Source: Azolla caroliniana
Taxonomy: Eukaryota > Plantae > Polypodiophyta
Reading direction: 5' to 3'
Length of the DNA stretch: 64,000 nucleotides
Assembly (NCBI GenBank): GCA_043228905.1
Contig: JBHGNT010000006.1
Span: 6,820,001 to 6,884,000 of the forward strand
Translations under genes and position numbers: made by a program
In this document: positions 4,761 to 53,491 of the stretch, piece by piece
Numbering within the stretch: the first letter of the stretch is position 1
Layout: the number at the start of each line of letters is the position of its first letter
The notes under the pieces: generated by a model
What the model saw: the letters and a program-made list of their open reading frames with translations, nothing else
Database searches by the model: none
What the model was told of the DNA's origin: nothing

Positions 4761-4856
4761 GGTCTGACTGCCGCCGGCGAGCTCTTCGGTGTTCTCCTTT
4801 TGCTGCGCAAGTTCTGCTACGTTTTGCTCATTTGCCTTTTTCACCCATTCCGGTGC

Positions 4857-6740
4857 CTACTTCCGGATGGCCTCTTGTGTCTCCCATTCCGTCGCCTTGC
4901 CCTTCGATCTTGTGGTAACCTGCTGCAGGTCTGCGACTTCGGTGACTACCATGTTTACTGCCGGTCGCTTGTCATAGCTCTTTGTCGGACATTGATTACT
5001 ATAATGTCCTTCTTGCCAGCAATAATAGCAATATGCTTTCCGGGTATTGCTGGATTCGGCATTGTTTCCTGTACCCGGTGGAGGACCTGTACGGACCACG
5101 GGGCTTTGGTCCGGTTGGCTGCTTGAGGCGCCTTTTTCCAGTTCACATGGGTGGCTCCCTTTTTTGAAATGCCGTTGTTTATTAAATTTCTTTTTGTTGC
5201 AGTACCCTTGACGGGGTTGGTCATCATATCTCCCGTAATCTTCCCGTCGTTGGTGATACCCGGGGGAGTGATCCCGGTTGTAATGCTCGTACCGTCCATT
5301 GTAATCTCGGTACTTGTCATATCTCTCGTACCGGTCATAGTTGTCTCGCCAATCGCCGTACCGGACATCTTGTGCCGGTCGATATCGCTCCTCTCGCCGC
5401 CAACGTTCGTCTTCTTCGTCTCGACTGCTACGTGGTTCGATTTGCCAGACTGGTGGTGCTTGCCGATTCAATAATTTATATTTGCACCGGTCCATCGTGT
5501 GGCTCGTCGATTGGCAGAGTAAGCAGTGCGTCCACATGGTGCACTCCAGTGCCGAGTGTCCGGAATTCAAGCAGGTCGTGCATTGGATTGCTTGCCGGAA
5601 CCGGAGATCCTCATCGGTTGGTAACGCTCGTTGGAGGGTTCCCATTGTTAGCCAAGAGCTCGTTTTCTCCATTTCTCTAACCCGGTCGATGACTTGGTCG
5701 ACGGTGCTTGTGCGAAAGTCGATGACCGTGCATTCTGTTCGTAGAGGTTCCTGGAGCGCGGCTAAGAATATAGCCCATGTTTCTTCCTCCGGAGGTGTTC
5801 GGGTAAGCTGACTGTGCATCCGTTGAAACCGGATGACAAACTGCGGAATGCTCTCCCCAGGGTCCGGCCGGATGGTATAAAATAGGCCCACCATTTTTCT
5901 CTGGTCCACCTCCTTCTGAAAGAAGTGCAATAATTTATCTTTCAGGTCCGCAAAGGTGGTGATGGTGCTGGGGTCCTGCGTCCCGTGCCATCTGGCAGCC
6001 GGTCCTTCCAATGTCACGCCGAATTCGGCTATCTTAGATCGTTCCTCTTCGACCGCGGTTAACCGTTGTGACACATGGTTCGCCTCCCATGTCTGTTGAA
6101 ACGCGTGAACATGAGCCTCCGCGTCCGGGTCATCCCTATACTTGGAGTACTGGAATGATATGTCGTCGTCCGGTGTTGGTACGCGGGTTGGCGGTGTCAG
6201 TGGTCTTTCCTGCTGTTCTGTCGGCGTCGGAGGTCTTTGCCGGTCTTCCTTTGGTGTTGCCGGCTCGACTTCCGATGTCGGAGGTCTTTCTTTGTCTTCT
6301 TCCATCTCCGGAGGTTGCTCCACGTCTAGTACCAGAGGTTCCCGGTCTGACAATTCTGGTTCCGGTGTCGGTAATGTATCTAACTCCGAGTCCTCCGGTC
6401 CTCCTAGGGTGTCGTTACTGCTGCGATAGTTCGTGTGTGCACTGTAACCCCCTTCTGAATCCGATTCCAGCGCCGAAAATGCTTCGGATTCGCCGTCTCT
6501 TCCGGCCAAGGCCTGGAGAAGGAATTCCGCTTCCCGGAAGCTGCTTAAGCTGCTTCCTTCGTCCGGGTAAGCGTTTTGTTGCAGACGGAGCGAATCCTCC
6601 GCCACTTTCCGGATCACTTTGGAAAATGATCGATCCGATCCGATTTCTTCCGCCGCTTGCTGGAAAGCCTCTCTCCGCCTTTGCCGTTGAGCAAGTCTTC
6701 GTGCTCTCTTTGTAACCGGGTCGTCTGTTGGCCTAGTCAT
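4857..6740 (-). CDS. Gag polyprotein of element 1
   Basis: 627-aa ORF right after the PBS, with a retrotransposon-gag-like core (LEGPAARW, GESIPQFVIRF) and zinc knuckles (CTTCLNSGHSALEC, CYYCWQEGHYSNQC). Confidence 0.85.
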   Translation of the reverse strand: MTRPTDDPVTKRARRLAQRQRRREAFQQAAEEIGSDRSFSKVIRKVAEDSLRLQQNAYPDEGSSLSSFREAEFLLQALAGRDGESEAFSALESDSEGGYSAHTNYRSSNDTLGGPEDSELDTLPTPEPELSDREPLVLDVEQPPEMEEDKERPPTSEVEPATPKEDRQRPPTPTEQQERPLTPPTRVPTPDDDISFQYSKYRDDPDAEAHVHAFQQTWEANHVSQRLTAVEEERSKIAEFGVTLEGPAARWHGTQDPSTITTFADLKDKLLHFFQKEVDQRKMVGLFYTIRPDPGESIPQFVIRFQRMHSQLTRTPPEEETWAIFLAALQEPLRTECTVIDFRTSTVDQVIDRVREMEKTSSWLTMGTLQRALPTDEDLRFRQAIQCTTCLNSGHSALECTMWTHCLLCQSTSHTMDRCKYKLLNRQAPPVWQIEPRSSRDEEDERWRREERYRPAQDVRYGDWRDNYDRYERYDKYRDYNGRYEHYNRDHSPGYHQRREDYGRYDDQPRQGYCNKKKFNKQRHFKKGSHPCELEKGASSSQPDQSPVVRTGPPPGTGNNAESSNTRKAYCYYCWQEGHYSNQCPTKSYDKRPAVNMVVTEVADLQQVTTRSKGKATEWETQEAIRK

Positions 6741-6776
6741 CCATTCCTGCCGTTGTTCACTGCGATTGTGCAGGAA

Positions 6777-6788
6777 TCGTGGTCGCCA
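6777..6788 (-). promoter_or_regulatory. Primer-binding site, probably tRNA-Arg
   Basis: Minus strand reads TGGCGACCACGA a few nt after the LTR end, complementary to a tRNA 3' end ...GUGGUCGCCA. Confidence 0.7.
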
Positions 6789-6795
6789 AAAACTG

Positions 6796-7231
6796 TGTTA
6801 ATCCTAGGGCTGGACAACAGCCTAACATAGGGTGTCCACTTAAGACACTTCACCAAAGGGTGTTACGGCAAGATGACTTACGACACAACGCTTAATTATA
6901 CCTTAATTGGTTACTTAGCAATACGTCATTACACGCGTAAGATATAACAATGAGTACAGAACGGTAATCAATACTGAAAGGTTAAGGCAATAAGTTCTAT
7001 TAATTATCCGTTGTCAATTACATTGTAACCGGGCCTTTATATAGGTCTTCGGTGCGAAGTACAAAACGGTGCCAACCAGCACCTATTCGGAATCGGTCCG
7101 GATCCGGATCAGCATACCGATTCCGGTCCGTCCGTCCATATTAATAAAATAATTACAACAGTTCCCGTATAAACTATTCCTTTCACACTCTGGTCTGGAC
7201 ATCCTTAAGCCTTCTTGCCGGCCGGGTAACA
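6796..7231 (-). repeat. 5' LTR of element 1
   Basis: TGTTA...TAACA inverted termini, a minus-strand TATATAAA near 7036-7043, and the adjacent PBS. Confidence 0.8.
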
Positions 7232-9222
7232 TGAAATGGACCAAAAGAAGACGTGTCTACCTCATCTTAAACGTCTTCCTAAAGATGTCAACGACGATTG
7301 TCTCGTGCAGATGCACTTGGTGGGTTGTTTAGCCTATAATGGAAGTGTGAAGCCTCATGTCTTCGTCACCTACCCAAATGTCCACAATGACCCTAATTTA
7401 ACAGTCACTGTGATTCAAAAAGTATTGATGTCTTGGGGGCAGTCTTTGCCGCCGGTTTTATATATTCAACTAGACAATACTGGTGGAGAAAACAAAAATT
7501 CTACGGTGTTTGGTTATCTAAGTATGCTAGTGAACGAAGGAATTTTTAGGAAAGTGAAAGTTAACTTTCTATTGGTGGGTCACACACATGACCATATCGA
7601 TCAGATGTTCAGTAACTTCTCTAGGCAGTTATCACGATATGATGCTTTTACGTTACCTAAGTTGTTCGACATCATTTGGTATGCATATACACCACACCCA
7701 ATTGTGCAACACTTGAAGGAAATATATGATTTCAAGAGATACATATTAGATGGTGGTGAGCAAAATGCCAAAGTGTTAGTGCCCTTAAATAATATAAGTT
7801 TCAACCACGTATTCTTAATAAATAAAAATGATCATAGTGGTTGTACATTATTATATGCAAAGCAGTATTCATCCTCCCCCCAATGGGAGCTTGAAGGCGG
7901 GTGTCAGTTTCTACTTCATATGCCTTCCACTTTTGTTTATGGTGTAGGACAAATGCCGATTGAGACTAAGAAAGTTGTCACCAATGTACTAGCTGATAAT
8001 CCAAAGGATGTTTGGATGCAAGCGTTGCAAGACAAATGCAAGCACATTGACAATGCGAAGAAGTATGCTGGGGAACAAGACACATCATGGTGGGATGTGT
8101 TCTTTAAAGATCAAGAACAAATTATTGACAATTGTGTCCTTGGTATTTGGACCGTGCAAATACCCTTCACTTGGAATATACAACAATGTCGTAATTCTTA
8201 GACTTCTCCTTTTGCACCTAATGCGATTAATGATAGCTTGCTCCATCCACCACAAAGGGACATATATGTTGGACCCAGGCTGACAAAAACAACAGAAGCA
8301 AGGTGGCAAGGGAACTTGCAAGAATTGAAGATGGGTATGTTAATTGCTACACTTGCTGATGATAATGAGCTGGGACATCAATTTTGGATTGGTAAGGTTT
8401 TAGATGTGGTGATGCATGAGAACCAAAGCCAAATCCAGTCTATAAAGGTGCATTGGTACAACACTAAAAGCAAAAATGCCTTTACCGGCAAGTATGCTTG
8501 TAGATGATGGAATGTCCATGGTCAAGGGGGAATAGAAAGAGGAAAAGAAATATTCGTAGCACTTCATGCCTAGACATTGGTGACGTAGATATTATTGTTT
8601 ACGACTTCACACTAACAAAAGTTGGACGTTTCAGGAAGTCTACAATAGATATTATCAAGGAGAAATTACCTATTCTACAAGGGGTCTCATGTCGAAGGCA
8701 AACAAGATCGTCTATACATAACATGGAATGTCAACATCTAGTTTTAGATGAAGACAATGCCTTAATAGGTACATCCGAAGATGACGAGGAACAATCTGCA
8801 TTGTATATTAGTTATAGTAGCGACTCTGGATCATGATACGAGTGATTTTTGTAAATTTTACACTCCTCAATGATATTTTGGTATCTAATGTAAGAGAGTG
8901 TCGTTTGTAATACTCGAAATATGCGTAAATTATGTTTAGAAATATTATTGCTTTGTACAGACATTGTTTGTTACAAAATACATTACTTCTTGACTTCTTA
9001 GTGATAGTGAACATTGTACCATTTCGATTAGAGCATAATTTTAGCGTTTTTCCAAGTTTAGGAAATGATGATTTTTTGAGGTTTTCCAACGACATTTTGA
9101 GAACATGTGATACTGGTATCATTACGTTTTGTGAATAAAGTATATAAACCCGAAAATTTGAGGGAATATTCCTTATCCTTCCATTTTTGCGCGATCCTTC
9201 CACTTCTGAACGCGAACGTGTT
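7232..9222 (+). mobile_element. DNA transposon 3' remnant encoding a DDE-type transposase (Sola-like, tentative), copy 1
   Basis: ORF 7236-8201 has QLDNTGGENKN and FLLVGHTHDHIDQMFS motifs, with frameshifted continuations 8238-8507 and 8504-8836. Bases 7946-9222 recur at 59512-60788. Confidence 0.65.
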
Positions 9223-9909: not shown

Positions 9910-10441
9910 TGTCACGATACAATGACATAAAATATATAGTTGATGAGTATTGAACTTGCAACCTCACATCAACAATACATCATGCTCAACCATCTTGAGA
10001 TGAGCATTGTATAAGATATATTTGATCTACATATCATTGTATAAGATGTACATGATCTAGGTATACTCTCTAGTCATCTAGAAAGTTCTAGAAAGTTCCA
10101 AGGTTCTAGAAGGTTCTAGAATATTCTTCAAAATATTCCAATGCATGTACTTCAACTTAGAGTATAAATACTTGTAACCATCTTGGTTCCTTTCAAGGGA
10201 TTCAATGCCAATCATTGACACATCAATCTAGTATTCTTGTTTGGCCCCATCTTCTCTCCTTGATTTACATCTCTGTCTTTATGCTCTTGTATTGTTCCTA
10301 GCGTCTTAAGTTCCTCATCTCATCGCTCCCAACTTCCCGAGTTTCTATCCTCATCATGTCGAGTTCCACGTTCGTAACCTTATCGATCGTGGCCTCGTCA
10401 TCTATGTTTTGTCGTAGTCTAGGGTTGGTGTGCCCATGATA
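9910..10441 (+). repeat. LTR of family B (heat-shock-element-bearing LTR)
   Basis: TGTCAC...CATGATA termini and TATAAATA at 10163-10170. It is the reverse complement of 10912-11802 once the MITE is removed. Confidence 0.9.
10080..10127 (+). promoter_or_regulatory. Heat shock element array in LTR-B U3
   Basis: aGAAagTTCtaGAAagTTCc and gTTCtaGAAggTTCtaGAAtaTTCt give 4 + 5 alternating nGAAn/nTTCn pentamers just upstream of the TATA box. Confidence 0.75.
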
Positions 10442-10490
10442 GTTTGCAACCTCATATCAACTATATATTTTATGTCATTGTATTGTGACA

Positions 10491-10911: not shown

Positions 10912-11424
10912 TGTCATGGGCACACCAACCCTAGACTACGACAAAGCATAGATGACGAGGCCACGATCGATAAGGTTACGAACGTGGAACTCGACATGAT
11001 GAGGATAGAAACTCGGGAAGTTGGGAGTGATGAGATGAGAAACTTAAGTCACTAGGAACAATACAAGAGCATAAAGACAAAGATGTAAATCACGGAGAGA
11101 AGATGGGGTCAAACAAGAATATTAGATTGATGTGTCAATGACTGGCGTTGAATCCCTTGATAGGGACCAAGATGGTTACAAGTATTTATACTCTAAATTG
11201 AAGTACATGCATTGGAATATTTTGAAGAATATTCTAGAACCTTCTAGAACCTTCGAACTTTCTAGAACTTTCTAGATGTCTAGAGAGTATACCTAGATCA
11301 TGTACATTTTATACAATGATATGTAGATCAAATATATCTTATACAATGCTCATATCAAGATGGTTGACCATGATGTATTGTTGATGTGAGGTTGCAAGTT
11401 CATCCTCAACAACTATATATTTTG

Positions 11425-11776
11425 GGGAAAAGTACCAGGATACCCCTGGAAGTTCTTCTATTTACCAAAATGTCCCTAGAAGTTCCAAATTTACCAAACT
11501 ATCCCTATGTCCAAAAAATTATACTTTATAAAGTAATTATACGCTCAAATCTTTGGTAAATAGGGCTAATTCGGGTCCATTTCTTCCATCTTTGGTAAAT
11601 AGGGCTAATTCGGGTCCATTTCTTCCATCTTTGGTAAATAGGGCTTGTAGATTTGAGTGTATAATTACTTTATAAAGTGTAATTCTTTGGACATAGGGCT
11701 AGTTTGGTAAATTTGGAACTTCCAGGGGTATTCTGGTAAATAGACGAACTTCCAAGTGTATTCTAGTACTTTTCCC
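11425..11776. mobile_element. MITE, Mutator-like, inserted in LTR-B
   Basis: About 125-bp TIRs (GGGAAAAGTAC...GTACTTTTCCC) and an 8-9 bp TSD TATATTTT(G/A). It is absent from the other LTR-B copies and has a central 39-bp tandem repeat. Confidence 0.85.
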
Positions 11777-11882
11777 TATATTTTATGTCGTTGTATCGTG
11801 ACATTATCCTCCCCTTTACAACCGCTTTTTCGAAAGCGTGATGTAGGGGTGAGCGGAGACTGGAACACCAAGTTAAGGGCGT

Positions 11883-12285
11883 GAGCAACGATGTGTGGTC
11901 TTCACCGGGAATTGGAACACTAATGGATGTGAACGACCATGTGCGGTCCTCCCTGAGAACTGGAACACCAACAGACTTGAGCGACCATGTACGGTCCTCA
12001 CTAGGAACTAGAACACCAATGGGCATGAGCGACCATGTGTAGTCCTCACCGGAGACACAAACACCAACGGGCATGAGCGACCATGTGCAGTCCTCACCGG
12101 AGACACAAACACCAACGGACGAGAACAACCATGTGTAACGGTCCTCACCAGAAACTAGAACACCAACGGATGTGAACGACCATGTGCGGTCCTTACCAGA
12201 GACACGGACACCAACAAACGTGAGCGACCATGTAAGGTCCTCACCCAGTATTGGAACACCAATGGGCGTGAGCGACCATGCACGG
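11883..12285. repeat. 48-bp tandem repeat array (element B internal, left part)
   Basis: Unit approximately GAGCGACCATGTGCGGTCCTCACCGGAGACACGAACACCAACGGACGT, about 8 copies. Confidence 0.9.
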
Positions 12286-14069
12286 TGTCGCGAAGTTGCG
12301 CGCACGTGTGTTACTTGGGCGGGACAACGGGGGTCTTGGACTAGGGAGTACTCAAGGGATAGAGAAGACCCGAGGTTTTCTTTACGACAATACTCTTCCC
12401 GACCCCTTCCCGAGCAAGGTCTTGTTGCCCTTTGTTTTGTGAGGTTGGTGGTTCTCGTTGATCACGACTCGTCGACCTTCTGAGATCACCACACGAGCCA
12501 AGTGACCAAACGGGTACAAGCAAGATGAGCACGCAACATGAATGCACAAGGGGACGATAACACAAACGCGAATGTCCGTACGTCTTTATGAGGAGGAGAG
12601 GTGCATGGGCACGCCCGAACGCTACCTCGTCACAAGACGTTGAACGTACGAGGAAGACACAAAACACATGCACAAAATGCTCGTACGCCTTTATGAGGAG
12701 CAGAGGTGCATGGGCAAGCCCGAACGGTCCCCTCATCACAAGACAACCGAACGTACAAGGAAGACACAAACACACACACAAATGCTCGTACGCCTTTATG
12801 AGGAGGAGAGGTGCATGGGCAAGCCCGAACGGTCCCCTCATCACAAGACGGACGAACGTACAAGAAAGACCCAAACACACGCACAAAATGCTCGTATGCC
12901 TTTATGAGGAGGAGAGGTGCATGGGCAAGCCCGAACGGTCCCCTCGTCACAAGACGGCGGAACGTACAAGGAAGACACAAACACACACACAAATGCTCGT
13001 ACGCCTTTATGAGGAGGAGAGGTGCATGGGCAAGCCCGAACGGTCCCCTCGTCACAAGACGGACGAACGTACAAGAAAGACCCAAACACACGCACAAAAT
13101 GCTCGTTCGCCTTTATGAGGAGGAGAGGTGCATGGGCAAGCCCGAACGGTCCCCTCGTCTCAAGAAGACCGAACGTACAAGGAAGACACGAATAAAGAAA
13201 GAAGGAGAGAAAGAAACGTGAATGATATCAACCAAAGAGATAAATACATGTTCGATTCTAATGCAAGAGGAACCTTTATAAAACAGGGTTTTGTTTACAA
13301 TGGCAACTTATAGTTAACCACAAGCTCAATCAAAACATAAATATTAAATGCCCTTAGAGACAAAAGCAAATCCTAACACGGCGAAGATGAACACACGAGC
13401 ACCACCAAAATGCCAATCCCAACGAACCACGACCACCCGAACGGCGAGCACACGGGCTCGCAACAACGAACGGGGCAGAGCAACGTCGAACCAACGAAGC
13501 TTGGGCTCACGAGCACTTCGAGTGCTGACGCGAAGAAGACGAGCACGTGGTGATGGGGGATGAAGGGGTATGAGATGAAGAGAAGTGGTGAATAAGGAGA
13601 TGAAGAGCTTCGAAGGAAAATTGACGATAGTCTCCTCCTCCCCAAATGTCCTCCCAAATTAGCCCCCCTCGACCTCCTTTTATAGGAAAAAAAGAAGGGG
13701 GGGTCGCCAAATTTGTCTTCAATGAAAAAGGAATAAAATTCCTTAAATCACGTTGCACTGTAAGTCCAAATTTGAACCATACACCTCTAGCTAGTAGTCA
13801 ATGTGACTATCCACTAGCCCACTAACTCTCTTTTATATAATATATAATTCTATCTCTATAAATTTATAGCCTGTCTCCACTCTACCTTTTATCTCTCCTC
13901 TCTCTTACTTTTTGCATGAGCTTCTGTACCTCCTTTTCACCCTTTCTTTTCCTTTTTATTTTGCATATGCACAATTAATCGCTTTTGTGTGCACACACAT
14001 TGCACATGCACATTTTTGACCCCCCCTTTCGCTGGTTTTTCCCACCCTCGAGCACGCCACATCATGACA
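12286..14069 (-). repeat. 3' LTR of element C
   Basis: TGTC...GACA termini. Bases 13518-14069 are repeated at 24093-24649. Confidence 0.85.
12570..13190. repeat. 105/106-bp tandem repeat inside LTR-C
   Basis: The GTACGCCTTTATGAGGAG anchor (with minor variants) recurs at 12578, 12683, 12788, 12894, 12999 and 13105. Confidence 0.9.
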
Positions 14070-17000
14070 TCTACCCCCACCAAACCGCACATCCTCCGGT
14101 ATGTGCCAAGAATGGCGGGCTGAGGGTGGTCAATAGTTCATTTCCTCCTCCTCATTGACCTCGTGGCTTGTTGTTTGCTTGCCTTTATCTTCGTCAAGGT
14201 CATCGAGGTTTGGCTCCTTGTCGTGTCGTTTTTTGAAGATTTTGACCCACTTCCCGACCATTGGTACTGCGAGCTTAGTCCCATCGAGTTCAGCGAGGTG
14301 GTAGGTAGCATTATCGTTTGCACTCGTTACCACGTACGGCCCAAACCATCGCTTTGCAAATTTCCGCACTGACCTATGTTGATTGTGGAGACTACTATCA
14401 TATACAATCACCCAGTCTCCTTCGATCTTCCGAGGGCGCAGTCGGTGTGTCTTGTCAAATCGGGCTTTGTTACTTAGCCTAGCCACTTCTAACCTCTCCT
14501 TTGCCAACTCCAAGTCTTTGGGTCTTCTCTCAAGTTGCCTTATCCTTGTGGCTAGAAGCTCTTCTCGACTCATCTCGTTTTCCCACGGCATCGCTACCCA
14601 TGAAGCGATCGTGTCTTCAATGGGCATCACCGGCTTTTGTCTGTACATGAGTTCAGCTGGCATGAAACCTGTAACTGAGCTATGAGTTGTTTTGTCGGCC
14701 CCCAAGGCATAAGGTAATAACTGAGGCCAATTCCCGACTCGCCCATCACAAGCTCGTTGTTGTCCGCCGGAATAGTAACCGACGGACAAAAGCGTAGGAA
14801 TAAGAAATGATATAAGAGCATAACGCATGTAACGGTTCACGCAGGAAGCGTGAACGGCTAATTAGACCCTGCATATATAAAGGGCAGAAAACCTCTTATG
14901 GGGGTGCGTGTAATTTTGGGAATGTAAAGAACACCTAATAATAGAATTCTATCTTCTCTGATTTTTTGTATATAGCCGCGGCTAATTCAGTGTCGGTGTC
15001 TCAGATACTTAAGCGTGGTAGTACGTAAGTGTAACCTTTGATAGGGATTCGGTTGTAGCCGTCTTCCCTTATACGCGGAGAGGTTATAGGGGTTCTCCCC
15101 TTACGCATTACGCTTAAACCCCTGTTCGTTGTTCCACACCCACTTTGAGGTCTAGGTCGAAGGACAGACCACGGACCGTGTTCCTAAACGGCAACACTTT
15201 TGGCACGCTTGGTGATCTGTGTTTCCTCATAGACGAGCAACAACGAATGGATGTTTAGCCGCAGACGACCTAGAGAACCAACACGACAAGACCGGCCAAT
15301 AACAAGGTCCGTCACATGCCAGGCAGAAGAACGGCCACGACAAAAGCCGCGCATCAGCGACCTCAGTACTACTTGCCGTGAGTGCAAAGGGGATTCTTCG
15401 CTCCCCAAATACCTCGACGAGACGCGGGGACCACGCTCACCACAACCACCCTGTGACCTTTCCCGATCCGCCGAAGCTCCCACTATGGCCTTTGCCTACC
15501 CCCGCTTTAACGGCGAAATCGACGCCACAACTCATATTCGCATGTTCCTGAATGTCTGGAATGCGAACCACATGGTGCAGAATCTCTCCGAGACGGTGGC
15601 ACACCAGTCGAAAATGACGGAGTTCGGATTAACATTAGATGGGCGTGCGACGTTCAGGCATTCACAGATGGACTTACCAGCCATAATATTCGATCAGTTG
15701 CAGTCCGCTTTCTTGTGATTCTTCCATCGGAGGGTTCCAGAACGCGAAATTCTCGGGCAGTTTTATACAATTAAGCAACTACCGACCGAGACGATAACGG
15801 ACTTTAGCTTACGTTTCCAAAATTTACGATGAAAACTGGAACGAAGCCCTGCAGAGGAGAAGGCTCGGGAGACATTTTTGGCAGCTTTATGCCGGCCCAT
15901 CCGGGCAACGCTCAACAACAATAGCGTGAAACGGGAAACGGCGGATATGGTAATTGAACGAGCGTTACAGCTCGAGTTGGATGACGAGGAGGAAAGGTTT
16001 CGATATCATCCTTACGACAAGTGTTACCTCAGGATGAGGAACGCCAATTTCGTCAAGAAATCCAGTGCACGATTTGCTTGAACTCGGGGTATTCCATGGT
16101 GGAGTGCAATATGCGAATCCACTGCCCAATCTGCCACTCGAAGGTTCACACAGTCGACTAATGCGAGTATAATATGTTAAACAGAGCCACTCCCGCGGTC
16201 CGCAACATGGACACACAACGTCAACCGCACTTGGTTGAACAAAGGAGGCAAGAAGACCGACCCCGGTATAAGGATCGCAACCCGCGGGAGGACCGGTACA
16301 ACCGGAATCGCCGGAATCACAACGAGTCCGAGGAGGACGACCTAGAGGACGAGGATTATTGTGGACATCCGAGTTATGCCAAAGGGGGTCGACGTTACGA
16401 ACATCAACGCTCGAGAAACAAATGGGGCGGCTTCAATGGCTATCGGGGTAAGCCTCGGCAATATCGGGATCACCGGCGTTACGACGAAAGCTCGGGGGAT
16501 GAGCAGCACCAGGAACAACGATGGGACCAACAACAGCCACCGCGTACGTTCTAACAAACGAGGCCGGACCGCGAAGAGCAAGTAGCACCCGGAGAGCGGC
16601 ACACACCACCTAGGGCCGAGAAGGGAGAATCAAGCATCCATTGTTTTATTTGTCAGCAACCCGGACATTATGCCACGCAATGCCCAGCACGCAAGGGAAA
16701 GGGGCCCGCCGTCAATACGATTACGGCGGAGGTGCAACAAGTCACGACACGCCAGCAAACAAAAACGGTGAATTGGGCTGCGCAGGACGAGGTACGACGA
16801 CAAGCCCAAGCCTGGGTGGAAAAAGCAAACGCGACCAATACGGAATGTATGCGGCAGGAGTCCGCGAACACAATGGAGCGAACAGAGAACGAATGATCGG
16901 GGCCGGACCCCGTTTGGCAGGTGTTAGCAGGCTGTGAAATCACGTTAACCATGGAAAAACTGCTAGAGCTAGTTCCACGTTTCCGCCAAACCATGGAAGC

Positions 17001-20711: not shown

Positions 20712-23700
20712 CTTCCCAGCTATTGGTACTGCGAGCTTAGTCCCATCGAGTTCAGCGAGGTGGTAGGTAGCATTATCGTTTGCACTCGTTACCATGTACG
20801 GCCCAAACCATCACTTTGCAAATTTCCGCATTGACCTATGTTGATTGTTGAGACTACTATCATATACAATCACCCAGTCTCCTTCGATCTTCCGAGGGCG
20901 CAGTCGGTGTGTCTTGTCAAATCGGGCTTTGTTACTTAGCCTAGCCGCTTCTAACCTCTCCTTTGCCAACTCCAAGTCTTCGGGTCTTCTCTCAAGTTGC
21001 CTTATCCTTGTGGCTAGAAGCTCTTCTCGACTCATCTCGTTTTCCCACGGCATCGCTACCCATGAAGCGATCGTGTCTTCAATGGGCATCACCGGCTTTT
21101 GTCCGTACATGAGTTCAGCTAGCATGAAACCTGTAACTGAGCTATGAGTTGTTTTGTCGGCCCCCAAGGCATAAGGTAATAACTGAGGCCAATTCCCGAC
21201 TTGCCCATCACAAGCTCGTACAATGGCTTTTACGATAGGCCCGTGTCCGCATTCTATCTTTCCATTAGCCTCCGAGTTATAAGCGGTCGTGAGAGAGAGC
21301 TTCACTCCAAGTCGTTCAAAGAGCTCTGTGGCTTCGTGAGCGTTCAGCTCTCCTCTGTCGGCCACTATCTTTCCCACACATCCGTACCGACAGATGACAT
21401 CCTCGAGTAAGAATTTACACACCCCCGCCGTCGTTTTGGTTGTTAAGGCTCACCCTTCTACTTGGTTTGTTAGGTCTTCTCTTGCTAGCACCAAATATTT
21501 CATTTGGCCCACTCCCATCGGCATCGAAACCAAATCCACCATCCATTTGAAGTGTATGGTGAGTGGGTAGGTCGGGTGCAACTCGTCCCTATGGCGTATG
21601 TTGGAGTGTATCTGGCAGCTTTCACACATCCCCACGAAATGGGCGACATCCTTGTACATTCCCGGCCACCAATACTTCTCCTTTAACTTCTCGAATGTTG
21701 CCCACGTTCCTCTATGGCCCGCCCAAGGACTCTCGTGGAATTCAGACACCAATGTTGTCTGGTTCTCTTCCTTTATGACCACTCGTTGTGGCGTCCCTGT
21801 CCTTCTCTTCGGGTGCCTCCAGAGGAATCCCCCTCGTAGGAAGTACTTGTACGCTTTCTTTCGGACTCTCTGTGCTTCCTCCTTCGACCATGAACTATCC
21901 ACCGTCATTGAGCTTAAGAACTTGCCAATGTGTAGCCACTCCCCTTCGTATTCACTTTCGTTGAAGGCGTGGAGCACTTGCACATCTCGATCATCTATAG
22001 ACGCTTGGGCAGTCTTAAAGAAGTCAAGAGCGACATCCTCATCTTCAGACATCATGTCGCTTTGGCCCTCGAACCTTGCCCTCGATAGCATATCTGCCAT
22101 GGCATTGTTCTTCCCTGAAATGTGGTGAATCTCCAGGTTCATTGATTTGATGTAAGCAATCCATCTTAGCATAGTTAGGTCGGGTGTTGCACACCCCGAA
22201 ACCATCCCTAGGATAGGAAGGCAATCCGTCTCTATTACCACCTCTGACCCGATTAGGTAATCTTTATCCGCCTTCACTGCGGACACAATACCCCAAAGCC
22301 CACATTTTAATTGGGCGTATTGTTGTTGTCGCTCGCTTAAGACCTTGGCTCCGAACCAGATGGCATAGCGTGTACCATCCTCTTCTTCTTGGTTGATGAC
22401 CCATCCGATCCCTGTTGGACTCGTACCGTCACCTAGATGGGCACCCCTTCCTTGTATACGGCTTTTCGTAAAGCTGCTGCCGCTACCAACATTCCTTTGA
22501 GCCTCTTCATTGCCTCTGTGTGCTCTTCCTCCCACTTGAACTTCCGCCCCTTCTTGAGTAGCCCATACAAGGGCTCGGCTATGTGAGCATAGTGCGGGAT
22601 CCAGATGTGGTAGAATGCACAAGCACCAAGAAATCGCCTCAGCTCTGTTTGTGATTTACATTCTTCCCTCATGTCTGTGATGGCGTCCACCTTTGTCGGG
22701 GATGGCTTCCGTCCGTACGCCCCGCACAAGTGTCCCACCACAAGGATCTCCGGTTGGCCGAATGCCGATTTCTCGCCCGAGAAGGTCAAGCGTGCATCTT
22801 CGAGTCTTTGTAGAACCTTCTCGCAATTGGAGATGTGATATGCCACAAAACGTCTACACCCATTCTCGTCCAAGGTTTCATCTTTCTCCGCTTCAGAGCA
22901 CCCTTTTATGGGGATGTCATCGAGGAATGGCATGGTGATGTCGGGGATGCAATCTCTCAATACCTTGTTCATTGCCTTTACCATGTGGGCTACAGAGTTA
23001 GTGCCTCCTTGTGGCAAGGTACACATCGCACTAGGTCGATAGGAGTCCGCATCGTTGTGATGTCCCTACTCTCCACATCTAGTTGGAATTGATCATACCC
23101 CGAGTATAGATCACCGATCGAATAAATAGACCTTCCAGCGAAGGCCTCGACGAATTCGTCAACGCTCGGTCCGACCCCAGCATTTCAAATTGTCACTTGA
23201 TTAACAGGTTGTAGGTCTTGGATGAAGCGTAATGTGCCGTTCTTCTTTGGCACAGTGAACCACTGATTCGAGTATGGGGCGCTTGATGGGTTGAGGATAC
23301 CCATCTCAATCTTTTCCTTGAGTAGCTCAATCAACTTCGGGATGTGAGCTCTCGGAACGGGGATTGGCTTGATGTTCCACGGTACATGCGGCACCGTAAA
23401 GATCACCATTGGCTCCACGATCTTATGGTTTACACACCCTATCTCACCCGACGAGAAGGCGAAAGCCCTTTCGTGCCTTTCGATCATCCTTCTAAATCTT
23501 TCCTCCTCCCTAGGCAATAGGAAGCCACCCCCACCAATCCGGAGCTTTTATCGCGTCTCGTCGGTGAACTGGTGCCCTATGCCTCGTGGGTCCCACAAGC
23601 TAAGATCAACCGCTACCCCCTTTATCCAATCCCAACTATCGTTAGGCAATGGGGCAGCCACTGGCTTCACCTTCTTGTCCACGGTCTTGTACTTTGTTTG

Positions 23701-24649
23701 CACCTTGACTTTCCTCGCTTCCTCAATCAACCGCCCAAGCTCTTCGATGGCGGTGTACATGTCAACTGAGTTGACTGGAATTACCTTGTTGTCTTCATTG
23801 AGGCCCGAAACGACTACCCTCTCCATCTCTCTGAGAGTGTCTTCGAATGAGACCGCCTCCATGGCGCCACCTATGGTGTCATCTTCCCCCAATAAATTAC
23901 ATTGTTTGAGATACCTTTCGTATCTCTTGGCCCTAGACTTATCTCTATCACTTAAACTAGTAATTTTACAAGCTCCATTTTCGGAGAACCAAAATTGTTT
24001 CCTATTACATTTAATAGTTTTACAAGGGTTTCGGGTCTTAGTTTGCCTCGGGCTATTGCGGCCCCACTCTTTAATAGCCCAAATAAAAAATCCTCGAGTG
24101 CCGACGCGAAGAAGACGAGCACGTGGTGATGGGGGGATGAAGGGGTATGAGATGAAGAGAAGTGGTGAATAAGGAGATGAAGAGCTTCGACGGAAAATTG
24201 GCGATAGTCTCCTCCTCCCAAAACGTCCTCCCGAATGAGCCCCCCTCGACCTCCTTTTATAGGAAAAAAAGAAGGGGGGGTCGCCAAATTTGTCTTCAAT
24301 GAAAAAGGAATAAAATTCCTTAAATCACATTGCACTGTAAGTCCAAATTCGAACCATACACCTTTAGCTAATAGTCAATGTGACTATCCACTAGCCCACT
24401 AACTCTCTTTTATATAATATATATATAATTCTATCTCTATAAATTTATAGCCTGTCTCCACTCTACCTTTTATCTCTCCTCTCTCTTACTTTTTTCATGA
24501 GCTTCTGTACCTCCTTTTCACCCTTTCTTTTCCTTTTTATTTTGCATATGCACAATTAATCGCTTTTGTGTGCACACACATTGCACATGCACATTTTTGA
24601 CCCCCCTTTCGCCGGTTTTTCCCACCCTCGAGCACGCCACATCACGACA

Positions 24650-25045
24650 ACGGTCCTCACCAGAGAAACGAACGCCAACAGACGTGAGCGACCATGTACG
24701 GTCCTCACCGAGACCTGGAACACCAACGGATGTGAGCGACCATGTTGGGTCCTCATCGGACACACGAACACCAACGGGCGTGAGAGACCATGTACAGTCC
24801 TCACCAGAGACACGAACACCAATGGACATGAGCGACCCTGTACGGTCCTCATCGGAGACACGAACACCAACGGATGTAAACAACCATATACGGTCGTCAT
24901 CAAGAACTGGAACACCAACGGGTGTGAGCGACCCTGTGCGGTCCTCACGAGAGACACGAACACCAACTAGCGTGAGCGACCATGTGAGGTCCTCACCGGG
25001 AACATGAACACCAAAGGGCGTGAGCGACCATGTGCGGTCCTCACT
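24650..25045. repeat. 48-bp tandem repeat array (element B internal, right part)
   Basis: Same unit as 11883-12285 and resumes in phase after the ACGG duplication. Confidence 0.9.
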
Positions 25046-25665
25046 GGCAATTTAAATAGTTGACGTTGATGAAGGCTAGGCACAGTAGTTTTGATGACGA
25101 CACCAAGAGGTGCTGAAGATGATGATGTCGAAGACGAAGGCATGAAGACAATGATGTTGAGGAAACTTAGCAATGACTGTGACTATGGCAATGATGGAAA
25201 CAAAGAAATAGATGAAGAGGATAAGAAACACAGAGATCAAGACATTGAGGATAAAAAGAAACACAAAGACAGATATATAGAGGATGATAGAAAACATAGA
25301 CGAAGATTATAAGAAACACATAGATATGGATGATGATGATAAGAAACACATCGATAGAGATGAAAACGGCAGGAAACACAGGGAGAAGGATGACAATGAC
25401 AAAAAATGCAGAGATAGGGATGTGGAAGATGATAAGAAGAGCAAAGATAGGGATGATGATGATAAGAAACCCGGAGATAGATATGTGGAGGATGAGAAGA
25501 AATTAAAAGACAGAGACAATGATGGGAAGAAACTAAGAGATAGACATGTCGATGAAGATACGAAACAAAAGGATGTTGATGACGGTAACTCTAGAAACAA
25601 CAACGGTGACAATGGTAACTCTAAAAGCAAGGGCGATGACAAATACGAGTGATACTTCCAATTGG

Positions 25666-25676
25666 AAGGGATTCAA
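25666..25676 (-). promoter_or_regulatory. Self-priming-type primer-binding site of element B
   Basis: TTGAATCCCTT (minus) starts 2 nt after the 5' LTR end and is the exact complement of AAGGGATTCAA at the predicted transcription start inside the LTR. Confidence 0.75.
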
Positions 25677-25944
25677 ATTGTCACGGGCAGACCAACCCTA
25701 GACTACGACAAAGCATAGATGACGAGGCCATGACCGATAAGGTTACAAACGTGGAACTCGACATGATGAGGATAGAAACTCGGGAAGTTGGGAATGATGA
25801 GATGAGAAACTTAAGACACTAGGAACAATACAAGAGCATGAGACAGAAATGTAAATCAAGCCTGAGAGAAGATGGGGCTAAACAAGAATACTAAATTGAT
25901 GTGTCAATGACTGGCGTTGAATCCCTTGAAAGGAACCAAGATGG

Positions 25945-28546
25945 TGTTGGGAGACAGGTCCCTCCGGATGGGAAGGGAGAAGAACAGTGCCTCCCTTCTG
26001 TACGTGGATGACATGTTGATCGTCGGACTGGACCAAGTCAAAATACGGATGCTGAAGAAGGCCCTCAACCAGACCTTCTCAATGAAAGACTTGGGTCCGG
26101 CAAGACAGATGCTGGGGATGCATATTATCCGGAACCAGTCAGCGAAGCAATTATGGCTGTCACAGGAGAAGTACGTGACAAAGGTGCTTCACCGGTTCAA
26201 CATGTCAGATGCGAAACCGGTCGGATCGACACTTCCGGCAAACTGCAGGTTATCCGGTAAGCAAAGCCCGAAGACGAAAGTAGAGAAGGCGGATATGATT
26301 AAGCAAACTGTGGGTTATCCAGTAAGCAAATGCCTCTGCCGTCGGGAGCTTAATGTACGCAATGGTGTGTACCCGACCATATATAGGATACAAAGTCGGA
26401 GTGGTGAGCCGGTTTATGAGCAATCCCGACAAGGAGCACTGGAACGCAGTCAAATGGATACTCCGGTACTTAAAGGGCACTTCGAACATGTGTCTCCGAT
26501 TCGGCCCCGGTAAACCTCAACTTGACGGGTTTACCGATTCGGACATGTCGGCTTATGTGGATACCATCCGGTCTACATCCGGGTATGTAATGACATATGC
26601 AGGGGGAGCTATTTCGTGGCAGTCGAGGTTGCAGAAGACGGTTGCGTTGTCAACCATGGAGGCGGAGTACATGGCGGTTGTGGAAGCCGGCAAGGAAATA
26701 TTATGGATGAAGGACTTCATAGGAGAGCTCGGTATCTGGCAAGATGAATACTGGCTCTATTGCGACAGTCAAAGTGCCATCCACCTTGCTAAGAATGTGG
26801 CCTACCATTCCCGGATGAAGCATATCCAACGTAGGTATCACTGGATCCGGGAAAGAGTAGATGACCAGGAGTTCGCGCTGACGAAGATCCACACGACCGA
26901 GAACGGGTCAGATATGCTCACCAAAGTACTGACACCTGACAAGCTGGATGCATGTCGGAAGCGGGTCGGACTAGTAAGACATCCCATGCCGGAGTGAAGG
27001 GGGAGTTTTTTAGGAAACAGGTCCGTCGGGATGGGAAGTGAGAAGAATAGTATTGATGAGCAAACTCGTCCGAGGCCGGTAGGCCGAGGCCGAAACCGGA
27101 TGTGGAGTACCCGACAACGGAAGACCCGGTGAGAACCGGATGAGGAGTACCCGGAAACGGAAGACCCGGTGAGAACTGGATGATGAGTTCCCGGCAAGCG
27201 CCGGATGATGCTGACAGGAAGTACACGCTCCCGATGAACAACGCTCGGCCACAACCGAGCCTAGAATAAAACATAGAAAATAGGGAATGAAAGCACAACG
27301 CGATAGAGAGAAAAGTACACAGGATGTTTACGTGGAAAACCCAAACTCGGGAAAAACCACGGCAGCCCACAGACCGCAAACTATTACTATATCAGAATGT
27401 ACAATAAGAAAGCACCGAGGCCACGACCTCGAGCTTGCTATCTTCGCCACAGGCGGCGGTTACAATCAGAGGCAACGACCTCTTTCTCTCTCTCACTCTC
27501 TCGGTACACAGTTGCGCGCTCTAATCTTGCGCCAACAAGAATGACAACCACACTCTCAAAAGTTTGCCCTAAGTCATATTTATAATAATATGACTTTTCG
27601 GCTATTAACAAATATAGCCATGATGGACTCTCATAAACATATTTACGAATATGTCTCTTCATCCGGTGAGCACTCCTCACCGGGCCTGCATCACCCGGCG
27701 CTTGTCGGGTACTCGTCATCCGGTTCTCACCGGGTCTGCAAGATCCGGCTCTCCATAGCCGGGTACTCGTCATCCGGTTCTCACCGGGTCTGCACCATCC
27801 GGCTTTCCGTAGCCGGGTACTCGTCATCCGGTTCTCACGGGGTCTGCACCATCCGTCTCTCCGTAGCCGGGTACTCGTCATCCGGTTCTCCGTAGCCAGG
27901 TCTACACCATCCGGCTCATGCCGGGTACTCTACATCCGGTTTCGGCCTCGGCCTATCGGCCTTGGACGAGTTTGCTCATCAGTACTGTTCTTCTCACTTC
28001 CTATCCGGAGGGACCTGTTTCCTAACAGATGCAGGCCCAGTGAGGAGTGCTCACCGGATGAAGGGACATATTCGTAAATATGTTTTTGAGAGTCCATCGG
28101 AGCTATATTTGTAAATAGCCGAAAAGTCATTCTAGTATAAATATGACTTAGGGCAAACTTAGTTAAAAAAGAGAAAAGTTGTTATTGTCATTATCGCGAT
28201 TGTGAGAGAGCAACCGTGTACAGAGAGAGAGAGAGTGAGAGTGAGCTAGAGATATAGAGAGGTCGTTGCCTCTGTTGTAACCGCCGCTTGTGGCGAAGAT
28301 CGTGAGCACGAGGTCATTGCCTCCATGAGCTCACTGTTGTAATCATTGTGATATAGTGATAGTTTGGAGTCAGATGTGGACTCCCGTGGTTTTTCCCTCT
28401 CAGGGTTTTCCACATTAATATCCTGTGTATTCTCTTTTCTTTCTGTTTGTGCACTTATCTCCATTCTTCATTTCTTCTGTGTTCGACTGTACAAAGTGAT
28501 TCACTCTTCGGTAGGTGCCGGAGACTATTCCGCGTATTCCTTGACA
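25945..28546 (+). mobile_element. Ty1/Copia family A (Tnt1/Tork-like) chimeric remnant: LTR start, RT C-terminus-RNase H, PPT, 3' LTR 27008-28546
   Basis: TGTTGGGAGACAGG LTR start, then YVDDML, CDSQSAIHLAKN and HIQRRYHWIRE. PPT AAGGGGGAG at ~26997-27005; the LTR ends TTGACA. Confidence 0.85.
27212..28027 (-). repeat. Solo LTR of Copia family A inserted in the preceding LTR
   Basis: TG...CA termini with a perfect 5-bp TSD GATGC (27207-27211 and 28028-28032). Confidence 0.9.
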
Positions 28547-35937: not shown

Positions 35938-36143
35938 ATGGATCAGTTCATAGACTTGGCCAAGGATTTCATCACAGAGAAATTGATGGACATGCAGAAA
36001 CCCGAAGCCGATGTGACGGATGTCAGCATAAAACATGGGGATCGTAATGCGCTCTCTCTCGAATCCAATGTCTTTGTCTCGAACCCTTACTCTCAGGACC
36101 TGCCCATCTGCGAGCTCTCCTTCAGGATCACAATCGGCGGCAG
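35938..36143 (+). CDS. LEA14: Late embryogenesis abundant protein LEA14 (LEA_2/WHy domain), exon 1
   Basis: MDQFIDLAKDFITEKL...KPEADVTDV...VSNPYSQDLPICELSF, followed by an AG|GTAAAA donor at 36143/36144. Confidence 0.9.
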
Positions 36144-37049
36144 GTAAAATGTGGTTATGTTATGCTCTTCAACTTTGGAAAAGATAGGAGTAGTTTAGGG
36201 TAAATTAAACCAACAGCAACAGGTTAGGGGTATTCTGATATCATTTAATTTCTGCGGTACTGCAGAAGGGGGGGTTATTTTTTGTTTTTGGGTAACAATC
36301 AGGGAGATTAAAGTTATTCCGGTAACAATTCAGGAACTTTGGGGCATGCACATAAGTTAGGGTTAGTTTTGGTAGTTTTCCAATTAAGTTACTGTCACAT
36401 AAAGGTTATCATGATAGGTTTTGAAATCATAGGGGTATTCTTGTAAGTTGTAAGTTTGGAAAACGGTGATAGATCTATGTAAGTATCAAACAAGTTGTAG
36501 GGATTTTGTTGCTTTGCCCAAATTATGTTATTATATGGCTCTATAGGGCACTCTTGAAGTATAATCATGCCCAATGCCTTGGTCTCTAGCCTTAGACAAA
36601 TTGTGACACGTTATTCATGATAATCAGACCTACATATGGATCTCCAATCTTGATAAATCCAGAGTTTTGTTTCATTAAGTAATAATTCGTAGAAATGTTA
36701 ATGCTTTCCTACTAGATTGCCCACTTAAACTAATGAGCACATGACCCTTCTCATCCCTATAGATCTCCATTGTTGATGTTTATTTTATCGAGGATTTGAT
36801 TGTGCTTTTCGACGTTTGATTGTGTTTCTAGCTTTTTAATATTTAAGTAAAGTTGACCATGCTTTTACCGCTTGTAGTATCTAGCATGATTATATATCAT
36901 TCACATCAATGCATAAATTTGGAATTGAGGGACTTCTATCTTTACATTTTTCTCATTAAATATCTAGTGTTTGGAGGACTTTCTTATTCCAAGTGTTGTA
37001 CATTTCCTCCATCACTTTTTCTCTGATGGTATTTGTATGTGTTTTATAG

Positions 37050-37341
37050 GGAGATTATTTCTGGAAATATCCCCAATCCTGGCTCAATCCGTGCCAATGA
37101 CAAGACTGTTGTCAAGCTCCCAATCATTGTCCCTTATGACTTTGTGATTAGCATTCTTCGAGATATTGCCACCCCTTATGACTTAGTGATTAACGTTCTT
37201 CGAGATATTGGTACCGATTGGGATATTGATTATGAACTCGTTGCCGAACTCATCATCGACCTCCCCATCATTGGCAATTTCACCATTCTCTTGTCTAAGA
37301 AGGGAACAATCAAGCTCCCAACTTTCTCTGGCATGTTCTAA
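37050..37341 (+). CDS. LEA14: LEA14 exon 2
   Basis: Acceptor TTTTATAG at 37049 with matching phase (AG|G = Arg), then SGNIPNPGSI...DWDIDYEL...IDLPIIGNFTI...GTIKLPT. The spliced product is 165 aa. Confidence 0.9.
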
Positions 37342-37479
37342 GTTGTCCTCATTGCTCTTGCTGGAGATAAGATACATGGAACTTAATGTAAAGCTTTGTT
37401 ACTATACAGCTCTAGCACAAGACAATTTTTGTATAACAACAGTTGTGATTGTTTCACCAATTTGATATTTCGTATCGTT

Positions 37480-38345: not shown

Positions 38346-38587
38346 TGCCACAATACAATGACATAAAATATATAGTTGATGAGGATTAAACTTGCAACCT
38401 CACATCATGCTCAATCATCTTGATATGAGCATTGTATAAGATGTACATGATCTAGGTATACTCTCTACACATCTAGAAAGTTCTAGAAAGTTCCAAGGTT
38501 CTAGAAGGTTCTAGAAGGTTCTAGAATATTCTTCAAAATATTCCAATGCATGTACTTCAACTTAGAGTATAAATACTTGTAACCATC
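38346..38587 (+). repeat. U3 half of the split 5' LTR of element B (HSE array ~38475-38532, TATA)
   Basis: Matches 9910-10181 and joins 25679-25944 through the GATGG/CCATC duplication. Confidence 0.88.
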
Positions 38588-46664: not shown

Positions 46665-46740
46665 TCACCATTTAGCACTTTGATGTTCTCTACTCTATAT
46701 TTATTATACTATTGTGCTCTTAAGGTATTTTCAAACTAAC

Positions 46741-47286
46741 ATGGATGATCTTAATATTAATCACTCCAAAATGTTTCTAAATGCTAATGTTATCATATCC
46801 TCTGAGATGGATCAAGATGATGAGGCATCAGTGGAGTCCACACTCACGCCTTTGGTTGGGAAGCGCCTCATCTATATGTATGACAATGGATGGGAGTATG
46901 AGGTGTATTACAAGAACAAGAGCACTATGGATTATAAGGTGCTAAAGGGTATGGTGGCTGGGAGATGTGTCCACAACCAGATTATCCACATGCGACGGTT
47001 ATCGGCATTGTCGGAAATGTTTATGGTTAATTGGACGGAGCCTACGGGGACTTGTGTGTGCCAAGTGGTGGACTTGGATAGGAGATCTATGCAAACAGTC
47101 ATTTTCTTCCCAAGTTGGGTGGTGGACAACCCTTCCAAAACTATTTTGTTCCAGAATGATCACCTCCCAATTATTGCCACCTATCGTGATGTCGGGCCTA
47201 CCTACCCGATCCATGTAGTCAATGAGAGTGGATTCATACACACGATTTTGAATAGTGTGCTTGATAATGAGCACCACATTTCATAA
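46741..47286 (+). CDS. padC: Phenolic acid decarboxylase (bacterial PadC family), intronless
   Basis: 181 aa from ATG 46741. Family motifs IYMYDNGWEYE, GMVAGR, WTEPTGT, IFFPSW, QNDH and TYP are present, and the substrate-binding Tyr pair, Arg and catalytic Glu are retained. Confidence 0.93.
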   Translation: MDDLNINHSKMFLNANVIISSEMDQDDEASVESTLTPLVGKRLIYMYDNGWEYEVYYKNKSTMDYKVLKGMVAGRCVHNQIIHMRRLSALSEMFMVNWTEPTGTCVCQVVDLDRRSMQTVIFFPSWVVDNPSKTILFQNDHLPIIATYRDVGPTYPIHVVNESGFIHTILNSVLDNEHHIS

Positions 47287-53369: not shown

Positions 53370-53491
53370 TGTTAGGAAATAGGTCCCTCCAGATGGGATT
53401 GTACGTGGACGACATGTTGATCGTCGGACGGGACCAAGCCAAAATACGGATGCTGAAGAAGTCTCTCAACCGAACCTCCTCAATGAAAGAC

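What the first reader, a model, noticed from the sequence alone, without database searches (positions are those of the whole stretch)
25655..25944. Non-coding LTR element that appears to prime its own reverse transcription (Tf1-type, 11 nt)
Seen: element B has no tRNA-complementary PBS. Two nt after its 5' LTR the sense strand reads TTGAATCCCTT (25676-25666). This is the exact complement of AAGGGATTCAA inside the LTR (25927-25917; 10195-10205 in the intact copy), which starts 32 nt after TATAAATA at a C|A step, where a Pol II start is expected. A perfect palindrome, CTTCCAATTGGAAG, overlaps the end of the PBS. Established: fission-yeast Tf1 primes with the first 11 nt of its own mRNA, and self-priming is associated with Tf1/Tcn1-type chromoviruses. 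Inference: B is a non-autonomous, tRNA-independent parasite of such a chromovirus, with about 1.5 kb of own internal sequence made largely of repeats.
Basis: partly seen in the sequence, partly recalled or inferred. Interest (0 to 1): 0.85.

Follow-up and report, generated by a model that had tools for sequence, protein, structure and literature searches.

The report
Gene-less retrotransposon likely priming itself
An abundant plant jumping element with no genes has, where such elements normally bind a host tRNA, an exact mirror of the predicted first 11 letters of its own RNA, and a sister version changed both copies in step, so it likely starts its own copying as the yeast element Tf1 does, using enzymes borrowed from a helper not yet found.

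Summary
Observation confirmed. The 11-mer 2 nt after the 5' LTR is the exact complement of an LTR 11-mer 32 nt after the only TATA box; chance is 21 of 20,000 anywhere in the LTR, 0 of 20,000 at that position. Six of 11 metagenome loci are homologues with the same non-coding layout. One contig also holds a second LTR type, not selected by my pattern, in which both 11-mers differ at the same four positions and still pair perfectly; both changed arms are abundant in three DNA runs. A second helix (R with the U5 end) is conserved, as in Tf1's structure; the third Tf1 helix was not shown. The palindrome is not conserved. The helper was not found: LTR ends fit a Sushi-type gypsy motif, but plant copia TAR is also predicted to self-prime, and Tcn1 was not detected in ferns, a possible host. 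No transcription start was mapped. Self-priming is known (Tf1) and predicted for plant Tcn1 and TAR; new are the non-autonomous carrier and the natural compensatory pair. The scan noted self-priming signatures in other genomes, not this element.

The parts
38346..38587 (+). U3 half of element B's 5' LTR, with TATAAATA at 38568-38575; separated from the R-U5 half by a copia insertion (duplication CCATC) and an inferred inversion
25679..25944 (-). End of U3, R and U5 of the 5' LTR, ending GTGACA
25917..25927 (-). Predicted self-primer AAGGGATTCAA (predicted first 11 nt of the RNA, 32 nt after the TATA)
25666..25676 (-). Primer-binding site TTGAATCCCTT, 2 nt after the LTR, exact complement of the self-primer
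25894..25911 (-). 5' arm (in R) of the second, inner helix
25680..25697 (-). 3' arm (U5 end) of the second, inner helix
25655..25668 (.). Perfect 14-bp palindrome; not conserved in homologues, judged incidental
24650..25678 (-). 5' part of the non-coding internal region: 30/33/63-bp repeats then about 8 copies of a 48-bp repeat; interrupted at 24649 by a gypsy element (duplication CCGT)
11804..12285 (-). 3' part of the internal region (48-bp repeats)
11804..11817 (-). Polypurine tract AAAGGGGAGGATAA abutting the 3' LTR
   Evidence: same tract in L002 and L010
10912..11803 (-). 3' LTR, carrying a 353-bp MITE-like insertion at 11424-11776; 11-mer at 11158-11148; followed by flank GGAAC, no PBS
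9910..10441 (+). Uninterrupted B LTR (532 bp), TATA at 10163, 11-mer at 10195; preceded by GGAAC; no PBS follows
10442..10490 (-). 49-bp inverted piece of the LTR start, followed by ACTAT and the continuation of the host copia element

Best explanation
Element B is a gene-less LTR retroelement whose primer site is the exact complement of an 11-mer in its own LTR, and it likely primes its own reverse transcription as Tf1 does, with enzymes likely supplied by an unidentified gypsy-type helper. Shown: LTRs with TG...CA ends, 5-bp target duplications, a polypurine tract, a 1.5-kb repeat-rich interior without a conserved reading frame, many copies, an 11-bp primer/PBS complement that exists in two sequence types, and a conserved inner helix between R and the U5 end. 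Inferred: (1) Pol II starts 32 nt after the TATA at the first A of the 11-mer; (2) the inner helix brings the 5' end next to the PBS and the 11-bp duplex forms; (3) the helper's RNase H cuts after nt 11, as in Tf1; (4) the helper's RT extends that 3' end through U5 and R, and the tract primes the second strand; (5) the helper's integrase inserts the DNA. The helper is most likely a Tf1/sushi-like (Tcn1-type) chromovirus (about 0.6), less likely copia TAR (about 0.15) or an undescribed self-priming lineage (about 0.25). The confidence below is for self-priming of a non-autonomous element, not for the helper's name.
For: Position and rarity of the match. Compensation: L002 holds a second LTR (1113-1525) with AAGGTGAACAA at +32 and TTGTTCACCTT 2 nt after its end; 4 of 11 pairs changed on both sides, 0 broken; own duplexes -14.4 and -14.1 kcal/mol, crossed duplexes -4.0 and -3.9. 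This LTR was not selected by the search pattern. Contigs of three DNA runs from three studies cover both type-2 arms deeply: no other letter at 5% or more at 1356-1366, and at PBS position 1531 the type-1 letter is 1,475 of 32,515, 608 of 11,694 and 1,664 of 9,925 depth units. Predicted pairing probability of the 11-bp helix 0.87-0.95 in 8 of 8 units. Inner helix: 96.5% of cells paired over 16 pairs, 2 pairs with two-sided change; in 6 of 7 units at most 2 of 500 shuffles pair as well. Tf1 uses 11 nt and a three-duplex structure. LTR ends TGTCACG and CGTGACA fit the published Sushi motifs TGTYANR / CNTNACA and not the copia Retrofit or Sire motifs. 5-bp duplications fit Tcn1 and TAR alike.
Against: No RNA 5' end, cDNA or raw RNA reads were available. 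The four compensatory changes are one event in one subfamily, seen on one molecule only in L002; no listed run contig spans both arms, and type-1 contigs are clipped at these places, so the depths are not proportions. The six type-1 homologues were selected for both 11-mers, so their invariance is circular; L010 is identical to L002 type 1 over the aligned part. The third duplex of Tf1 was not found above shuffles (8 to 182 of 200 shuffles as good). The window's own copy has a weak inner helix (63 of 500 shuffles as good) and an unremarkable overall fold (z = -0.03). No autonomous element with this LTR was found. [quoted passage not shown]
Confidence: 0.85

Rival explanations
1. Self-priming is right but the helper is a Ty1/copia element of the TAR type, not a chromovirus.
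For: 89% of 203 TAR elements were predicted to self-prime and 95% have 5-bp duplications. Tcn1 was not amplified from 26 ferns and horsetails, and the host may be a fern (weak).
Against: LTR ends match the Sushi/rGmr1 motifs and not the two plant copia motifs listed (TAR itself is not in that table). The window's copia family with visible PBS uses the tRNA-Met site TGGTATCAGAGC and a different LTR.
Confidence: 0.15
2. The complement is only part of a fold-back structure of the 5' leader (packaging or transcription signal, or an inverted repeat perfected by DNA template switching), and priming uses another RNA.
For: The 11-bp helix continues into a longer R-U5 helix. In type 2 the primer also lies in a perfect 12-bp local hairpin, so template switching could have changed it in one step.
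Against: In both types the match is exactly 11 nt, starts 32 nt after the TATA and ends 2 nt from the LTR, the place of a PBS; no other primer site exists there. The arms are 172-251 nt apart, far for an 11-bp repair event.
Confidence: 0.1
3. The site is a degenerate or unusual tRNA (or half-tRNA) PBS and the LTR match is secondary.
For: 11% of plant PBSs are only partly complementary to tRNAs and 2% use half tRNAs. I did not compare with the host's tRNA set (no genome held).
Against: Neither PBS type starts with TGG; two different PBS sequences each equal the complement of their own LTR; no Rfam match reached its gathering score at 24600-26000.
Confidence: 0.04
4. The R-U5-PBS stretch is a small inverted-repeat DNA element (MITE) with 11-bp ends, not a priming signal.
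For: The two 11-mers flank about 250 bp as inverted repeats.
Against: No duplication flanks the pair (TTTC before, CCAA after), and the 3' and solitary LTR copies carry only the first arm and end at the LTR terminus.
Confidence: 0.01

Closest known systems
Tf1/Tf2 of Schizosaccharomyces pombe and the Tf1/sushi group (PMC7175516 passages; bioRxiv 10.1101/2022.12.06.519325 passages and second part of section 28; PMC4600332 passages)
   Same: 11-nt complement between the predicted RNA 5' end and the PBS; a second duplex between R and the PBS-adjacent U5 end; mosaic U3 regions among subfamilies.
   Different: No gag-pol; plant host; third duplex not shown; nothing tested at the bench; two primer sequence types share one interior.
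Plant Tcn1 chromoviruses (PMC6317226 passages and Additional file 5; PMC2864245 passages and section 7)
   Same: Self-priming predicted for 83% of 1,500 elements; 5-bp duplications; non-seed plant hosts.
   Different: Tcn1 is defined by RT-RH-INT phylogeny and a chromodomain, which B lacks; reported from mosses and Selaginella, not detected in ferns; for SM-Tcn1 the 2010 paper found no sign of self-priming.
Ty1/copia TAR lineage (Houba, Osr-1) (PMC6317226 passages and Additional file 5)
   Same: Self-priming predicted for 89%; 5-bp duplications.
   Different: Coding elements; B's LTR ends do not fit the plant copia motifs of PMC3601003 (passages).
Non-autonomous plant LTR elements: TRIM, LARD, Cassandra (PMC4717578 and PMC13570524, passages; PMC6934838, passages)
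   Same: LTRs, PBS and PPT around a non-coding interior; tandem LTR-interior arrays (L002).
   Different: The 115 sugar-beet families carry six tRNA-derived PBS motifs (that screen detected PBSs from a tRNA list); B is 2.5 kb with 530-bp LTRs and a self-complementary PBS.

Membership tests
Tf1-type self-priming mechanism | PBS next to the 5' LTR complementary to about 11 nt at the start of R, no tRNA site | tested here: met
Tf1-type self-priming mechanism | The 11-mer is the real 5' end of the RNA | not testable with these tools
   Only predicted from the TATA spacing; runs were contigs, which cannot show starts
Tf1-type self-priming mechanism | Second duplex between R and the U5 end next to the PBS | tested here: met
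   weak in the window's own copy
Tf1-type self-priming mechanism | Third duplex between sequence 3' of the PBS and the LTR (pretzel) | tested here: inconclusive
   only 5-6 bp candidates, not better than shuffles
Tf1-type self-priming mechanism | RNase H cleavage after nt 11 releases the primer | not testable with these tools
   needs experiment
Tcn1 / Tf1-sushi chromoviruses | RT-RH-INT phylogeny and chromodomain | tested here: not met
   B encodes none; helper not found, so its lineage is untested
Tcn1 / Tf1-sushi chromoviruses | LTR end motifs TGTYANR ... CNTNACA and 5-bp duplication | tested here: met
   motif is short and shared with rGmr1
Ty1/copia TAR | INT-RT-RH coding region of the TAR lineage | tested here: not met
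   B is non-coding; helper unknown
Non-autonomous LTR retrotransposon | Two LTRs, PBS, PPT, target duplications, no coding capacity, several copies with the same interior | tested here: met

The most novel reading that the evidence does not exclude
The host is a fern, where no Tcn1 element has been detected, and B is the parasite of an undescribed self-priming retrotransposon lineage. Its subfamilies carry different self-matching primer/PBS pairs that cannot prime each other (crossed duplexes about -4 against -14 kcal/mol), kept in step because the PBS is copied from the element's own primer, and in type 2 a perfect U3 hairpin hides the 3' copy of the primer.
Probability: 0.25. Interest if true: 0.65.

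Novelty: new variant of a known kind. Interest (0 to 1): 0.45.

Why it matters
Self-priming has been shown by experiment in fission-yeast Tf1 and, in the papers I read, only predicted or proposed for plant Tcn1 and TAR elements. A natural pair of subfamilies with four compensatory changes is stronger evidence than complementarity alone, and a short gene-less element isolates the cis signals needed for tRNA-free priming. Screens that detect PBSs from tRNA lists can miss such elements. The two primer types give a ready test of how primer and PBS stay matched, and the LTR is a probe for a self-priming helper in a plant group where none is described.

Tried and rejected
No whole genome was held, so the helper could not be sought there. 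Pattern scans for B or its helper found nothing in viral contigs or in one prokaryote-genome scan; the other gave 2 bacterial contigs that share only a 22-23-nt hairpin. 5 of the 11 metagenome loci (L001, L004, L005, L009, L011) had no BLAST match to the window and were dropped as chance hits. A search of viral contigs with a window gypsy RT found no relative. No RNA holder was listed. The window's gypsy elements gave no chromodomain hit among the ORFs scanned (35, 9, partly the same) and have other LTRs. The palindrome was rejected as functional. A covarying U3 hairpin over the primer was considered: it is significant only in type 2 (0 of 1,000 shuffles) and not clearly in 6 type-1 LTRs (30-225 of 1,000), and type-1 U3 folds about as well with the type-2 primer, so it stays a lead. 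A coding interior was rejected: an antisense D/K/R-rich frame recurs but has 12-39 stops per frame in all copies. A LEA-like host exon gave one unnamed hit and did not name the host. The primary Tf1 papers PMC1369541 and PMC1563812 are not held; Additional files 1 and 3 of PMC6317226, which list element-level PBSs and sequences, were too large to read and may hold a matching primer or helper.

Full report
Setting. The window is a nest of plant LTR retrotransposons (self-comparison; Pfam RT, RNase H, integrase and gag hits). No whole genome is held. The host is a plant and probably a non-seed plant: the window's phenolic acid decarboxylase has its nearest named eukaryotic hits in Adiantum ferns at 49-51% identity, no closer than bacterial ones, so 'fern' is a weak inference; earlier scan notes on this genome say fern or moss (unchecked).

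The observation. All coordinates hold. The PBS-position 11-mer is the exact complement of an LTR 11-mer found in all three LTR copies that contain R. The LTR has one TATA-like box, 32 nt upstream. Of 20,000 random 20-mers, 21 have an 11-nt or longer complement anywhere in the LTR and none at 25-40 nt after the TATA. The palindrome is one of six perfect 14-mers in the window and is not kept exactly in any of seven homologous flanks.

Anatomy. Element B runs on the minus strand. Its 5' LTR is split: U3 lies at 38346-38587 (+), R-U5 at 25944-25679 (-), each ending at the duplication CCATC of an inserted copia element; an inversion between inverted copia copies is inferred. The interior (24650-25678 and 11804-12285, about 1.5 kb) is interrupted by a gypsy element with a 4-bp duplication CCGT and consists of 30-63-bp and 48-bp repeats. 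A polypurine tract abuts the 3' LTR (11803-10912), which holds a MITE-like insertion. A further LTR lies at 9910-10441. Two 5-bp duplications (GCTAT/ACTAT and GGAAC) pair crosswise among these LTR ends, which implies two insertions into one copia element and later inversions; LTR distances are 0.045-0.056, so these copies are not recent.

Relatives. A scan of metagenome contigs for both 11-mers 225-255 nt apart gave 11 loci; 6 are homologues at about 75-80% identity with the same PBS flank and, where long enough, the same repeats; 5 have no match to the window. Because they were selected for both 11-mers, their invariance proves nothing. Contigs of four DNA runs from three studies cover the whole interior and LTR (3,874-7,178 records laid per run), so B is a high-copy family. 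No reading frame is conserved among five interiors.

The decisive result. L002 is a tandem array (interior-LTR-interior-LTR). Its upstream LTR (1113-1525), which the pattern did not select, has AAGGTGAACAA 32 nt after its TATA and TTGTTCACCTT 2 nt after its end. Four of eleven positions differ from type 1 on both arms and all eleven pairs are kept. Each primer binds its own PBS at about -14 kcal/mol and the other at about -4. Downstream of the primer the two LTR types are nearly identical in R, while U3 is far more diverged. Laying run contigs on this LTR shows deep cover of both type-2 arms in three DNA runs from three studies, with type-1 contigs clipped at the same places; both types are therefore common, but no listed contig links the two arms, so the linkage rests on L002 alone, and it is one evolutionary event.

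Structure. The 11-bp helix has a mean predicted pairing probability of 0.87-0.95 in 8 of 8 units. Inside it a second helix pairs R nt 17-34 with the U5 end: 16 pairs, 96.5% of cells paired, two pairs with two-sided and five with one-sided change; at most 2 of 500 shuffles pair as well in 6 of 7 units, but 63 of 500 in the window's own decayed copy. Tf1 needs three duplexes, the central primer-PBS one and two beside it; the third was not found above shuffles. A hairpin between the end of U3 and the primer is strong in type 2 only.

Mechanism. Shown: the sequence arrangement, its covariation, the non-coding interior, high copy number, target duplications. Taken from Tf1 (first 11 bases pair with the PBS and RNase H cuts between bases 11 and 12) and inferred for B: start at +32, fold-back, cut after nt 11, extension by a helper RT, PPT priming, integration. 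That the PBS is copied from the retained primer, which would keep the two in step, is my inference from the title of a paper seen only in a reference list.

The helper. Not found. B's ends TGTCACG and CGTGACA fit the Sushi integrase motifs and not the plant copia motifs, which favours a gypsy helper. Against a simple Tcn1 label: TAR copia elements are also predicted to self-prime (89% of 203; Tcn1 83% of 1,500), and Tcn1 was not amplified from ferns. The start of R is covered far more deeply than B's U5 and PBS, which may reflect 3' and solitary LTRs or another family sharing the promoter and primer.

Novelty. Self-priming is established for Tf1 and predicted for plant Tcn1 and TAR. I found no description of a non-autonomous self-priming plant element or of natural compensatory primer-PBS pairs in the listings of my searches (most subscription papers are not covered, and element-level supplements of PMC6317226 could not be read). 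The sugar-beet survey of 115 non-autonomous families lists only tRNA-derived PBSs. The scan has noted self-priming signatures in other genomes (68 findings hold the words) but no look-alike of this sequence. Papers seen: PMC6317226 passages and Additional file 5; PMC2864245 passages and section 7; bioRxiv 2022.12.06.519325 passages and part 2 of section 28; passages of PMC7175516, PMC4600332, PMC3601003, PMC3350952, PMC4717578, PMC8282616, PMC6934838, PMC13570524, PMC5341516.

Verdict. Real feature; self-priming likely (0.85); helper unidentified; a new variant of a known kind; interest 0.45.

Noticed in passing
window 10442-10490: A 49-bp inverted copy of the LTR start, with its internal hairpin loop apparently flipped, abuts the end of the LTR at 9910-10441; it leaves U3 ends at both sides of one target duplication. 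Origin unexplained.
   Followed up: partly
window 12286-14088 and 24094-24649, pol 20811-23703: The gypsy element nested in B has a 4-bp CCGT duplication, matching the NCGN preference reported for Phygy elements; lineage not tested by tree.
   Followed up: partly
window 53372-53399, 53492 and 25945-25993: Short copia LTR starts are joined directly to internal RT sequence at several places, once in a 122-bp tandem duplication; may be aberrant integration or autointegration products.
   Followed up: no
window 46684-47286 (+): Phenolic acid decarboxylase gene (PF05870, E 2e-49); nearest named hits are bacterial and fern proteins at about 50% identity.
   Followed up: partly
window 11424-11776: 353-bp MITE-like element with long terminal inverted repeats and an 8-bp duplication, inserted in B's 3' LTR.
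   Followed up: no
L002 1-3261 and L010: B occurs as tandem LTR-interior arrays that mix type-1 and type-2 LTRs, as Cassandra and other TRIMs do.
   Followed up: partly
L002 1337-1364: In type 2 the primer lies in a perfect 12-bp hairpin with a GGAA loop whose other arm is in U3; it would exist only in the 3' LTR copy of the RNA.
   Followed up: partly
window 25059-25660 (+ strand reading): The antisense strand of B's 30/33-bp repeats reads as a D/K/R-rich peptide in pieces in several copies, but no copy keeps an open frame.
   Followed up: yes
window 7230-8201 and 59512-60788: DUF7869 ORF (E 6e-52) overlapping a 1.28-kb repeat that recurs at 96% identity.
   Followed up: no
window 35938-37342 (+): Two-exon LEA-like host gene (label recalled, from no call); first exon has one unnamed homologue at 66%.
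   Followed up: partly
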